Assembly: GCF_056712565.1 (NCBI RefSeq)
Contig: NZ_CM160072.1
DNA: 64,000 nt
Strand: one strand, 5' to 3'
The position numbers are program-made. This document shows positions 21,001 through 24,000 of this stretch, in pieces. Every line of letters starts with the position of its first letter. The first letter of the stretch is position 1.

Positions 21001-24000
21001 CACCAAGAATCAGTACATTGTTCATGAAACTTTTCCTAGATTATTGGCAGCAATATGCCAGGCCATATCACTATTACGGATTTGAATATGTTTCATTACA
21101 GAGTTTCCTCAAAGAACGGAGCTAATACTGAAATTGCTTCAGCCACATAGACTTTGCCATCATAAAGATCCATATGGTTTGCGCCTTCAACAATGTGATA
21201 GCGTTTATCCTGGCTTGATGCTCGATCGTACAGGTCGTCACTCATGCATTTGCTCCCAGCCTGGCTGCCCGCCACAATCTGTATCGGCTGAGTCAGGTAC
21301 ACTTCCGCCATATGGTAAGCATCATAGGTAATAATCTGGTTAAGGCTGCGCAAAGTAGCGTAACCCGGTGCTGTTGGATACTGCGCGCGAGGGGTGTGGT
21401 AATACTCCCAGGCCTGACGCAGTTCTTCGTTCGGCGCATCGGACTCCTTCATTGGTGCCAGTGGCATAGTGGCGTATTCTCCGCTGCTAATATCGCTGGT
21501 TCGGGCGTTTGAACCCGCGTCAACGTATGGTAGGGCATCAATAGATTTCACATTGTTTTCCCAACCATTACGGAACATCGAACCAATATTGACCGCACTA
21601 ACAGTACCGATGGCCTTGATGCGGCGATCCTGAATTGCAGCATTGGCTGTATATCCTGCTCCGGCACAAATTCCCATCGCACCAATTCGGGTATTGTCGA
21701 CATAAGAAAGCGTTGTCAGGTAATCAATCACGGCACTGACGTCTTCAGTACGAATGTATGGGTTTTCTAACTGACGCGGCTCGCCGCCGCTTTCACCTTG
21801 ATAAGATGCGTCATAAGCAATAGTGACAAATCCCTTTTCCGCCAGTTTTTCGGCATAGGTTCCGGCCGTTTGCTCTTTAACGCCCCCACCTGGGTGAGAT
21901 ACCACAATTGCCGGATACTGACGGGTTTCATCAAATTTTGGAGGGAAATAGATCACTGCAGACAAAGAGATGGTTGGATTATTGCTGTTAGTGAAGCTGA
22001 CTTTATTATTCATCATTCCGTTCCTCATGGAGTTGTCGGTTCGTTTTAACGGTTGGTGATATCACTATAGATATTGATCATTAAGTTGATTAGACCCAAA
22101 ATCATGATTAGACCTATCATTTAAATGATTAATAGATTGTATGGAGATACTGAATGAAGCGTGAAGAAATCGCTGATCTGATGGCGTTTGTCGTCGTTGC
22201 AGAGGAGCGTAGCTTCACTCGCGCAGCAGCCCGCCTGAGCATGGCGCAGTCAGCTTTAAGCCAGATAGTGCGCCGTATAGAAGAACGATTGGGATTGCGG
22301 CTTCTGACGCGAACCACGCGCAGCGTTGTACCCACTGAAGCGGGCGAGCATCTTTTGTCTGTTCTTGGCCCTATGTTGCATGACATAGATTCTGCCCTGA
22401 CATCCCTGAGCGATCTGCAGAACCGCCCATCCGGGACAATACGTATTACTACTGTAGAACATGCAGCAAAAACGATATTGTTACCAGCTATGCGCACATT
22501 CCTGAAATCGCATCCTGAAATTGATATTCAGCTTACCATTGATTATGGTTTGACCGATGTCGTTTCTGAACGTTTTGATGCAGGCGTCCGTCTGGGTGGG
22601 GAGATGGATAAAGATATGATCGCCATTCGAATCGGGCCAGACATACCAATGGCTATTGTTGGCTCACCGGATTATTTTTCTCGTCGAAGTGCTCCAACGT
22701 CAGTGTCACAATTAATAGATCATCAGGCAATTAATTTGTATCTTCCCACATCGGGTACAGCAAATCGCTGGAGATTAATACGCGGTGGACGTGAAGTTCG
22801 TGTTCGCATGGAAGGTCAGCTTTTACTGAATACGATAGACCTGATCATTGATGCTGCAATTGATGGGCATGGATTGGCGTATCTACCTTATGATCAGGTT
22901 GAGCGGGCTATTAAAGGAAAAAAACTGATACGTGTTTTGGATAAATTCACACCAGATTTACCCGGTTATCACCTGTACTATCCACACCGTCGACATGCTG
23001 GCTCGGCATTCTCATTATTTATAGATAGGCTGAAGTATAAAGGTGCTGTTTAGCACTACTTGCTGATACATTAATTTAATTCTTCTCTTAACGTATTCTC
23101 AGTTCCTTTCAACGTTTTGGTTATTTTTTATTCTTCGCACAATGGCGACAGATGCTGATTATGATACCGAAAACGGGTTTGAATGTGCGAAGCCCGAACG
23201 TAGTGTTCGGAGTTCTATGTGCTTTACCGCATTTTGGAGACTATTATTTACACTAAATCTGATTTGATATATTGATACTTAAAACATTTGATGCTTCCTT
23301 TGTCACTTTTTTGATGGAAGTTGTTTGCATTTCTTTAAAGCGAAACAAATAATTACGCATCAATTTTAATGTCGGTTAGAGGGAAACTTATGAAGCACTC
23401 TGTTTCAGTCACGTGTTGTGCGCTGTTGGTCAGCAGCATTTCTCTTTCGTATGCTGCTGAAGTTCCGAGCGGCACAGTACTGGCAGAGAAGCAGGAGCTG
23501 GTGCGCCACATTAAAGATGAGCCAGCGTCGCTGGATCCCGCTAAAGCCGTGGGCCTGCCGGAGATTCAGGTCATTCGCGATCTGTTTGAAGGACTGGTGA
23601 ATCAGAACGAGAAAGGGGAGATTGTCCCCGGCGTTGCGACTCAGTGGAAAAGTAATGACAACCGTATATGGACTTTTACCCTGCGCGATAACGCAAAATG
23701 GGCGGATGGCACACCGGTAACGGCGCAAGATTTTGTCTACAGCTGGCAACGTCTGGTGGACCCGAAAACGCTATCGCCATTTGCATGGTTTGCCGCGCTG
23801 GCGGGAATCAACAACGCACAGGCGATTATTGATGGTAAAGCCGCGCCTGACCAGCTTGGCGTCACCGCAGTTGATGCCCATACTTTGAAAATCCAGCTTG
23901 ATAAACCATTGCCGTGGTTTGTGAATTTAACCGCTAACTTTGCCTTCTTCCCGGTGCAAAAAGCCAACGTAGAAAGCAGTAAAGAGTGGACGAAACCCGG

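What the first reader, a model, noticed from the sequence alone, without database searches (positions are those of the whole stretch)
22060..22128. Palindrome and direct repeats in the pgrR–ycjY divergent promoter
The 125-bp divergent region holds a perfect 14-bp palindrome atcatttaaatgat 26 bp upstream of pgrR, a direct repeat tgattagacc(…)tgattagacc, and tatcact/aagttg half-sites resembling those of the mpaA/mppA box. This is dense for such a short region and likely reflects autoregulation and control of the ycjY-ymjC-mpaA operon.
Basis: seen in the sequence. Interest (0 to 1): 0.3.

Follow-up and report, generated by a model that had tools for sequence, protein, structure and literature searches.

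The report
PgrR operator in the ycjY–pgrR spacer
The palindrome and repeats are real and strongly conserved, and they are almost certainly the binding site and promoters through which the LysR-type regulator PgrR controls itself and the neighbouring ycjY operon, which is an ordinary arrangement in a place where PgrR is already known to bind.

Summary
The window is E. coli ATCC 11775. The sequence observation holds. A perfect 14-bp palindrome ATCATTTAAATGAT lies at 22116-22129, 24 bp before the pgrR ATG. TGATTAGACC occurs twice, at 22087-96 and 22105-14. Both together arise in about 1 in 10,000 shuffles.

Published work already places PgrR binding in this spacer, names the ycjY operon as its target, and shows negative autoregulation.

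New here is a phylogenetic footprint. The divergent pgrR/ycjY pair recurs in other enterobacteria, in Alphaproteobacteria and Paraburkholderia, and on conjugative plasmids. Four-fold degenerate sites in pgrR are saturated (37% and 23% identity to E. coli). Even so, the dyad arms TATCA-N6-TGAT are 99-100% conserved, and an 84-bp alignment needs no gaps.

I read the dyad as PgrR's recognition site, lying over the predicted pgrR -10 and start. The GATTAGAC/TGAT repeats would be the secondary site and the back-to-back -35 elements.

The second repeat copy is perfect only in Escherichia. The claimed similarity to the mpaA/mppA box is at chance level.

Verdict: a known regulatory region with a canonical LysR layout, of low interest. 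The side finding is that pgrR-ycjY-hydrolase-SDR is a mobile cassette.

The parts
22115..22130 (.). Dyad TATCA-TTTAAA-TGATT, containing the perfect 14-bp palindrome at 22116-22129. Proposed high-affinity PgrR recognition site (RBS).
   Evidence: Perfect palindrome, unique in the window. The arms TATCA/TGAT match E. coli at 100% of positions in 9 enterobacterial loci and 99% in 16 alpha/beta-proteobacterial loci, although 4-fold sites in pgrR are 37% and 23% identical. More distant homologues carry other arm pairs at the same position.
22115..22120 (+). TATCAT, predicted -10 of the pgrR promoter. The predicted start is about 22126-22128, inside the palindrome.
   Evidence: The consensus scan finds TAGACC-18-TATCAT. 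The same pair is printed for pgrR in PMC3946193. The spacing TAGAC(N)-18-TAT.A. is kept in alphaproteobacterial and distant homologues. The transcription start is not mapped.
22087..22096 (+). Direct-repeat copy 1, TGATTAGACC. It contains the deeply conserved GATTAGAC, the predicted pgrR -35 (TAGACC, 22091-96) and, on the minus strand, TAATCA (22092->22087), my proposed ycjY -35.
   Evidence: 98% conserved in enterobacteria and 75% in alpha/beta loci. GATTAG is kept even in homologues with a different dyad.
22105..22114 (+). Direct-repeat copy 2, TGATTAGACC. Its TGAT (22105-08) is the right half of a weak CCCA-N6-TGAT element (22095-22108).
   Evidence: Exact copy in E. coli. Only 78% conserved in enterobacteria (usually TGATTGGACT) and 46% in alpha/beta loci.
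22077..22090 (.). Second ATCA-N6-TGAT element (ATCATTAAGTTGAT), 39 bp centre to centre from the palindrome. Proposed secondary (ABS-type) PgrR site.
   Evidence: 86% conserved in enterobacteria; the left arm is ATTA in several loci.
22064..22070 (-). ACTATAG block. On the minus strand it reads TATAGT (22069->22064), my proposed -10 of the ycjY promoter, with a predicted start near 22057.
   Evidence: Invariant in all 10 enterobacterial sequences. Alphaproteobacteria carry TCTAG at the identical spacing, inside a CAATCT-N9-AGATTG dyad. The promoter role is inferred.
22060..22066 (+). TATCACT word. Not supported as a half-site shared with the mpaA/mppA box.
22083..22088 (+). AAGTTG word, lying inside the second ATCA-N6-TGAT element. 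The minus strand reads CAACTT, a possible sigma-E -35.
22154..23053 (+). pgrR (ycjZ), LysR-type regulator.
   Evidence: RefSeq annotation. Pfam HTH_1 and LysR_substrate domains.
21096..22016 (-). ycjY, alpha/beta hydrolase, first gene of the divergent operon.
   Evidence: RefSeq annotation. Pfam alpha/beta-hydrolase families.

Best explanation
About 70 bp of the ycjY-pgrR spacer (22064-22133) form the operator and promoter complex of a LysR-type divergent gene pair.

The dyad TATCA-N6-TGAT(T/A)A, which in E. coli is the perfect palindrome, is the primary recognition site for a PgrR dimer. It covers the predicted -10 (TATCAT) and start site of the pgrR promoter, so bound PgrR shuts off its own gene.

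The DNA towards ycjY carries weaker TGAT-type elements: ATCA-N6-TGAT at 22077-90 and CCCA-N6-TGAT at 22095-108. Their right halves plus the following bases make up the TGATTAGACC repeat. It also carries the adjoining -35 regions of two back-to-back promoters. The second dimer pair of a PgrR tetramer is proposed to sit here and hold the ycjY promoter closed until an unknown ligand changes the complex.

Shown: the sequence elements, their conservation, their co-inheritance with the regulator, and, from the literature, PgrR binding to this spacer, repression of the ycjY operon and autorepression.

Inferred: which bases PgrR touches, both transcription start sites, and the role of the secondary sites.
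For: 1. PgrR has HTH_1 and LysR_substrate domains and is transcribed divergently from ycjY.

2. Literature: genomic SELEX places PgrR on the ycjY/ycjZ spacer, and the regulon includes ycjY-ymjDC-mpaA. Negative autoregulation of pgrR was validated and attributed to a site in its promoter.

3. The divergent pair recurs in 9 enterobacterial and more than 20 alpha/beta-proteobacterial loci. The recognition helix AQSALSQIVRR is identical across them.

4. An ungapped 84-column alignment holds across all 35 loci. The dyad arms are 100% and 99% conserved, and the 70-bp core is 89% identical among enterobacteria. By contrast, 4-fold degenerate sites in pgrR are 37% and 23% identical to E. coli. The 24 bp between the dyad and the ATG are unalignable.

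5. In Paraburkholderia and the enterobacteria the dyad is kept although it lies 24-28 bp from the ATG. Its conservation is therefore not just a Shine-Dalgarno effect.

6. Homologues with under 55% identity and a different recognition helix keep the layout but carry other arm pairs: ATAAG/CTTAT, ATGAG/CTCAT, TGAA/TTCA. Both arms change together with the protein.

7. The predicted pgrR promoter TAGACC-18-TATCAT puts the dyad over -12 to +3.

8. With my inferred ycjY promoter (TAATCA-17-TATAGT, start about 22057), the three elements centre at -65.5, -44.5 and -26.5. This matches the general LysR scheme of an RBS near -65 plus an ABS over -35/-10, as summarised in PMC8407307.

9. SNPs in divergent E. 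coli alleles avoid all of these elements.
Against: - I had no base-level binding data. Shimada 2013 is not held.
- Neither transcription start is mapped. The one TSS table I could read (Kim 2012) has no start in this spacer.
- The symmetric box is T-N10-A (even spacing), not the textbook T-N11-A.
- GATTAG and TCTAG stay constant in clades whose dyad differs. That fits generic promoter elements better than PgrR-specific contacts.
- The second repeat copy and the left arm of the 22077-90 element vary among enterobacteria.
- In Alphaproteobacteria the distal element is a different dyad, CAATCT-N9-AGATTG, 49.5 bp from the main one. The secondary-site model is therefore not uniform across the family.
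- Two other ycjY promoters are possible: ATGATA-19-TCTAAT (PMC3946193) and TTCACG-18-TACAAT.
Confidence: 0.7

Rival explanations
1. The conserved blocks are only core promoter elements of two back-to-back promoters (-35 TAGACC and -10 TATCAT for pgrR; -35 TAATCA and -10 TATAGT for ycjY). On this view the palindrome and repeat are by-products, and PgrR binds elsewhere in the spacer.
For: The spacing TAGAC(N)-18-TAT.A. is conserved in all clades. GATTAG and TCTAG stay constant even where the dyad changes. RpoD holoenzyme binds this spacer on its own, and the same hexamers were proposed in PMC3946193.
Against: The right arm TGAT lies downstream of the -10 and belongs to no hexamer, yet it is 99-100% conserved. 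In distant homologues both arms change together to keep the dyad. Promoter hexamers alone do not explain that. The two readings overlap more than they compete: an RBS over the regulator's own -10 is the normal LysR arrangement.
Confidence: 0.12
2. The AT-rich palindrome and TGAT/ATCA words are a site for a host nucleoid or global factor (IHF-, Fur- or H-NS-like), not for PgrR.
For: The 22076-22091 element resembles WATCAANNNNTTR with two mismatches, and AATGATTAAT recalls Fur-box hexamers (my reading of the sequence, from memory of those consensus motifs). Several other PgrR SELEX targets are AT-rich loci.
Against: The elements travel with the regulator across enterobacteria, Alphaproteobacteria, Paraburkholderia and plasmids. 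The dyad co-varies with the regulator's recognition helix. No host factor would impose this in such different hosts.
Confidence: 0.04
3. The dyad acts at the RNA level, as a small hairpin in the pgrR leader that masks the ribosome-binding site. This is most plausible in Alphaproteobacteria, where GAGGTGAT lies inside it.
For: Compensatory arm changes would also fit a stem. Alphaproteobacterial versions fold at -3.5 to -5.9 kcal/mol with the Shine-Dalgarno sequence inside.
Against: In E. coli the hairpin is worth only -1.3 kcal/mol. The 61-nt leader folds no better than shuffles (z = -0.09). Rfam gives no match. The predicted pgrR start lies inside the palindrome. The enterobacteria have a separate Shine-Dalgarno sequence 24 nt downstream.
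Confidence: 0.04
4. Chance: a short AT-rich spacer happens to contain a palindrome and a repeat.
For: The spacer is 34% G+C. Each feature alone appears in about 1% of shuffles.
Against: Joint probability is about 1e-4, and the elements are conserved against saturated neutral sites.
Confidence: 0.02

Closest known systems
Classical LysR-type (LTTR) divergent control region: RBS plus ABS with negative autoregulation, as summarised in PMC8407307. BenM/CatM, CbnR and OxyR are textbook cases (from memory).
   Same: A LysR-family regulator is transcribed divergently from its target. One strongly symmetric site overlaps the regulator's own promoter. Weaker sites extend 40-60 bp towards the target promoter. 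Autorepression is documented. The inferred positions, -65.5, -44.5 and -26.5, fit the scheme.
   Different: The symmetric box has even spacing (ATCA-N6-TGAT, that is T-N10-A) rather than T-N11-A. PgrR is described as a repressor of the target, not an activator. No ligand is known. The start sites are unmapped, so the positions are predictions.
Published PgrR (YcjZ) regulon of E. coli K-12 (Shimada, Yamazaki and Ishihama 2013, PMID 23301696; cited in PMC5934670, PMC4797297 and PMC10505187).
   Same: It is the same spacer. K-12 differs from the window by one base, at 22140, outside all elements. The regulator, target operon and autoregulation are the same.
   Different: I could not read the paper. 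I therefore cannot say whether the palindrome was already named as the PgrR box. The cross-class conservation and the plasmid-borne copies are not mentioned in any paper I could read.
CrgA, AphB and YafC-like LysR regulators, the nearest solved structures and the nearest NCBIfam model.
   Same: Best PDB sequence matches are 3mz1, 3szp/3t1b and 3hhg (E 1e-29 to 1e-33, full length). The best NCBIfam hit is YafC, below its cut-off.
   Different: These are sequence relatives only. No PgrR-DNA complex exists, and their operators are different sequences.

Membership tests
LysR-type transcriptional regulator (the protein that would read the site) | N-terminal HTH_1 winged helix plus C-terminal LysR substrate-binding domain | tested here: met
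   PF00126 at residues 7-65 (76 bits) and PF03466 at residues 90-294 (121 bits), both above their cut-offs.
LTTR divergent operator (RBS/ABS) | Regulator gene transcribed divergently from the regulated gene across a short spacer | tested here: met
   ycjY is on the minus strand ending at 22016 and pgrR on the plus strand from 22154. The same arrangement is found in more than 30 loci.
LTTR divergent operator (RBS/ABS) | Dyad-symmetric recognition site containing the T-N11-A LTTR box | tested here: inconclusive
   There is a strong dyad, but with even spacing: ATCA-N6-TGAT, whose symmetric T/A pair gives T-N10-A. T-N10-A and T-N9-A variants are accepted in PMC8407307. The distal alphaproteobacterial dyad CAATCT-N9-AGATTG is a literal T-N11-A.
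LTTR divergent operator (RBS/ABS) | The recognition site overlaps the regulator's own promoter and gives negative autoregulation | not testable with these tools
   Autorepression is shown in the literature. The overlap rests on predicted hexamers TAGACC-18-TATCAT. No mapped start site was available.
LTTR divergent operator (RBS/ABS) | RBS near -65 and ABS over -35/-10 of the target promoter | not testable with these tools
   The positions -65.5, -44.5 and -26.5 apply only if the ycjY start is near 22057, which I inferred from the conserved TATAGT. Other candidate promoters exist.
LTTR divergent operator (RBS/ABS) | The regulator physically binds the spacer | not tested
   Region-level binding is reported by genomic SELEX.
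LTTR divergent operator (RBS/ABS) | The site is inherited with the regulator and co-varies with its recognition helix | tested here: met
   Arms are 99-100% conserved where the helix is identical. Different arm pairs occur where the helix differs.
   Spacing is 23 bp versus 17 bp. The local alignment score is reached by 76% and 44% of shuffles.
Sigma-E promoter (suggested by the RpoE SELEX peak in PMC5493296) | GGAACTT-N16-TCAAA/TCTGA | tested here: inconclusive
   The only candidate is the minus-strand TCAACTT-N16-AGTGA (5/7 and 3/5 matches). The -35 T is specific to E. coli.
Cis-regulatory RNA or terminator hairpin | Stable structure beyond shuffles, or a match to a described family | tested here: not met
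   z = -0.09. No Rfam match at E <= 1. The palindrome hairpin is worth -1.3 kcal/mol.

The most novel reading that the evidence does not exclude
pgrR, its operator, ycjY, a second alpha/beta hydrolase and an SDR oxidoreductase form one self-contained mobile cassette. It is found on conjugative Klebsiella and Rhizobium plasmids next to IS elements or an integrase, and in Alphaproteobacteria with 78-84% YcjY identity. It landed between mpaA and mppA in Escherichia and is now decaying there.

On this reading, PgrR's ancestral and primary task is ligand-dependent control of the hydrolase and SDR genes through this conserved operator. Its 'peptidoglycan recycling' role in E. coli would be a secondary consequence of read-through into mpaA.
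Probability: 0.4. Interest if true: 0.4.

Novelty: already known. Interest (0 to 1): 0.2.

Why it matters
It gives a base-level, testable proposal for where PgrR sits in a spacer it is already known to bind. The cross-class conservation narrows the operator to TATCA-N6-TGAT plus GATTAGAC. This would let PgrR-type sites be searched for in other genomes.

The side finding concerns the cassette. It is mobile, and different E. coli lineages keep different numbers of its genes. That suggests the true ligand and function of PgrR/YcjY should be sought in hydrolase/SDR chemistry rather than only in murein peptide recycling.

None of this changes how LysR regulators are understood.

Tried and rejected
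- Shimada 2013 (PMID 23301696), which would show the PgrR gel shift or footprint, is not held.
- Start-site tables:
  - Thomason 2015 is not held.
  - The Cappable-seq GTF was cut when stored, and neither it nor the other held files contained a start site in the 1.39-Mb region.
  - The ROSE and Romero 2014 supplements have nothing for these genes.
  - Kim 2012 has no start in the spacer, only starts inside pgrR and at mpaA.
- RNA explanations were rejected.
- Similarity of the spacer to the mpaA/mppA box was rejected as chance.
- A window-wide scan for TATCA-N6-TGATA gave only this site and one other at <=1 mismatch (11853, not followed up). It gave a 2-mismatch match in the mppA box (TGTCACTTTTTTGATG, 23301). 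That is too weak to call a PgrR site.
- GATTAGAC is not enriched elsewhere in the window.
- Within-E. coli identity is uninformative on its own, because the flanking genes are equally similar.
- A sigma-E promoter could be neither established nor excluded.
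Full report
**Identity of the locus.**
The window matches E. coli ATCC 11775 at 100% identity. RefSeq annotates ycjY (window 21096-22016, minus strand), pgrR (22154-23053, plus) and mppA (23390-25003, plus). K-12 MG1655 differs from the window in the spacer at one base only, 22140, which lies outside every element discussed here. The K-12 literature therefore applies directly.

**The observation.**
- All the sequence features exist. The perfect palindrome ATCATTTAAATGAT is at 22116-22129. TGATTAGACC is at 22087-96 and 22105-14. TATCACT is at 22060 and AAGTTG at 22083.
- Three corrections are minor. The palindrome ends one base beyond the stated interval. It lies 24 bp, not 26, before the ATG. 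The spacer is 137 bp with the annotated ycjY start; the 125-bp figure uses an upstream in-frame ATG at 22028.
- In 20,000 dinucleotide shuffles, a palindrome this long appears in 1.4%, a repeat this long in 1.0%, and both together in about 0.01%.

**What is already known.**
- PgrR (formerly YcjZ) is a LysR-family regulator. Its genomic SELEX targets include the ycjY/ycjZ spacer, and its listed regulon includes ycjY-ymjDC-mpaA (PMC5934670; PMC4797297).
- PPTP-seq and a tunable-TF library showed that pgrR is negatively autoregulated. The authors related this to the published PgrR site in its promoter (PMC10505187).
- RpoD holoenzyme alone binds the spacer. The proposed hexamers are TAGACC-18-TATCAT for pgrR and ATGATA-19-TCTAAT for ycjY (PMC3946193). 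The consensus scan here finds the same pgrR pair.
- RpoE holoenzyme also gives a strong SELEX peak in this spacer (PMC5493296).
- The primary PgrR paper (PMID 23301696) is not held. I therefore cannot say whether the palindrome was already named as the binding site.

**New evidence: a phylogenetic footprint.**
- A search for PgrR relatives returned loci with 85-88% protein identity in Citrobacter, Kluyvera, Serratia, Shimwellia and Pseudocitrobacter. It also returned loci with 69-73% identity in many Alphaproteobacteria and in one Paraburkholderia.
- In nearly all of these loci a ycjY homologue lies divergently upstream. It is 89-93% identical to E. coli YcjY in the enterobacteria and 73-84% in the others.
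- The recognition helix AQSALSQIVRR is identical throughout this clade.
- Anchored on the dyad, 84 columns (window 22054-22137) align without a single gap in 35 loci.
- Four-fold degenerate sites in pgrR are 37% (enterobacteria) and 23% (alpha/beta) identical to E. coli. That is effectively saturated.
- Against that background, conservation relative to E. coli is as follows:

| Element | Enterobacteria | Alpha/beta loci |
|---|---|---|
| 70-bp core, 22064-22133 | 89% | 56% |
| 14-bp palindrome | 99% | 76% |
| Arms TATCA/TGAT | 100% | 99% |
| Palindrome centre TTTAAA | 98% | 44% |
| Repeat copy 1 | 98% | 75% |
| Repeat copy 2 | 78% | 46% |

- The deeply conserved unit is therefore TATCA-N6-TGAT(T/A)A. 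The perfection of the 14-bp palindrome is an enterobacterial trait.
- The 24 bp between the dyad and the pgrR ATG cannot be aligned even among enterobacteria.
- ACTATAG (22064-70) is invariant in enterobacteria. Alphaproteobacteria carry TCTAG at exactly the same distance, inside a CAATCT-N9-AGATTG dyad.
- In the most divergent E. coli alleles sampled, SNPs fall at 22037, 22048-49, 22098, 22103 and 22140. None touches an element.

**The dyad follows the protein.**
Homologues below about 55% identity have a different recognition helix (SQSALSHTIR...). They keep the layout TCTAG ... GATTAG ... 19 nt ... dyad ... ATG, but with other arm pairs: ATAAG/CTTAT, ATGAG/CTCAT, TGAA/TTCA. Only 3 of 35 such loci contain TATCA-N6-TGATA within 150 bp upstream. 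Both arms change together with the regulator, which is what a dimeric DNA-binding site predicts.

GATTAG and TCTAG behave differently. They stay constant across these clades. I therefore read them mainly as promoter elements: the adjoining -35 regions, and the -10 of the ycjY-direction promoter (CTAGAT or TATAGT on the minus strand). They look less like PgrR-specific contacts.

**Mechanism proposed.**
- *pgrR promoter.* The predicted promoter has its -35 at TAGACC (22091-96) and its -10 at TATCAT (22115-20). The start would be near 22127, so the dyad spans about -12 to +3. Occupancy would exclude RNA polymerase, which fits the documented autorepression.
- *ycjY promoter.* I infer TAATCA (22092->22087), a 17-bp spacer, then TATAGT (22069->22064), with a start near 22057.
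- *Site positions.* On that assumption the dyad centre lies at -65.5, the CCCA-N6-TGAT element (22095-108) at -44.5, and ATCA-N6-TGAT (22077-90) at -26.5. This matches the general LysR picture of an RBS near -65 and an ABS over the -35/-10 region, with an apo-tetramer that bends the DNA and blocks the promoter (PMC8407307).
- *The direct repeat.* On this reading TGATTAGACC is the right half-site TGAT plus adjoining promoter sequence, occurring twice.
- *Status of the steps.* The start sites, the secondary sites and the ligand switch are all inferred.
- *Alternative ycjY promoters.* The published guess has a 19-20-bp spacer. There is also a non-conserved TTCACG-18-TACAAT that would start near 22129. 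With the latter, the palindrome would still repress ycjY, by sitting on its +1.

- The supposed kinship with the mpaA/mppA box is at chance level. The words are 23 bp apart here and 17 bp apart in both box copies. Alignment scores are matched by 76% and 44% of shuffles.
- The words are poorly conserved.
- The exact second repeat copy is specific to Escherichia.

**Rivals.**
- An explanation from promoter elements alone does not account for the right arm or for the paired arm changes.
- A host-factor site does not explain co-inheritance across classes and plasmids.
- An RNA hairpin is negligible in E. coli: -1.3 kcal/mol, leader z = -0.09, no Rfam hit.

**Comparison and novelty.**
This is a canonical LysR divergent control region, with an even-spaced (T-N10-A) box. 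It lies in a spacer where binding, target and autoregulation are already published. I rate it already known, with low interest.

**Side finding.**
The most interesting result is about the cassette, not the operator. LysR | hydrolase - hydrolase - SDR is a mobile four-gene unit.
- It is intact in E. coli O111:H8.
- It sits on a conjugative IncF Klebsiella plasmid beside an IS110 element.
- It sits on a conjugative Rhizobium tropici plasmid between an integrase and an IS21 element.
- The operator is present in all three.
- The window strain has lost the second hydrolase. K-12 has also lost most of the SDR gene.

Noticed in passing
window 20387-23053; L084, L085, L086: pgrR plus ycjY, a second alpha/beta hydrolase and an SDR oxidoreductase form a four-gene cassette. 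It is intact in E. coli O111:H8. It also sits on a conjugative IncF Klebsiella plasmid next to IS110, and on Rhizobium tropici plasmid pRtrCIAT899a between an integrase and IS21. The window strain lacks the second hydrolase. K-12 keeps only the ymjD/ymjC remnants of the SDR gene.
   Followed up: partly
window 21096-23053 versus L010-L032: YcjY is 78-84% and PgrR 69-73% identical between E. coli and most of the alphaproteobacterial loci, while synonymous sites are saturated. This points to old horizontal spread of the pair under strong protein-level constraint.
   Followed up: partly
window 20191-20220 and 23302-23331: A 30-bp box, 27/30 identical, lies upstream of both mpaA and mppA in the same plus-strand orientation although the genes point in opposite directions. 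The mpaA copy coincides with the promoter of the mpaA start site mapped by Kim 2012 (window 20179, minus strand). On that strand it reads AACTT-N16-ACAAG, which is loosely sigma-E-like. The mppA copy contains TGTCA-N6-TGATG, two mismatches from the PgrR-type dyad.
   Followed up: partly
window 22695 (-) and about 22901 (+): The Kim 2012 supplement lists an antisense start site inside pgrR, confirmed by sequence at 22695. It also lists a sense start inside pgrR assigned to mppA, 489 nt upstream of the mppA start used there. mppA may therefore be partly transcribed from within pgrR.
   Followed up: partly
window 22062-22089, minus strand: TCAACTT-N16-AGTGA is the only sigma-E-like match in the spacer. 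A paper reports a strong RpoE-holoenzyme SELEX peak here. The T that makes AACTT is specific to E. coli; other enterobacteria have CATCTT or TATCTT.
   Followed up: partly
window 22013-22028: The ycjY ORF extends to an ATG at 22028, but homology (alphaproteobacterial MGKISF against E. coli MMNNKVSF) and an AGGA 7 nt upstream support the annotated start at 22016.
   Followed up: yes
window 23054-23389; L084 5110-5202: The 336-bp pgrR-mppA spacer carries a fragment annotated in some strains as an incomplete epoxyqueuosine reductase QueH pseudogene. This is possibly a scar from the insertion of the cassette.
   Followed up: no
window 53859-57108: GGTCACGG(T/G/C)ATTGATA recurs nine times at spacings of 294 or 441 bp. 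This indicates a long tandem-repeat coding region.
   Followed up: no
window 11419-11434 and 11853-11868: Two further near-matches to the dyad pattern lie 434 bp apart: TGTCATTTCTTTGATG and TATCACTACGTTGATG. The second is the only other site in the window with <=1 mismatch. Context not examined.
   Followed up: no
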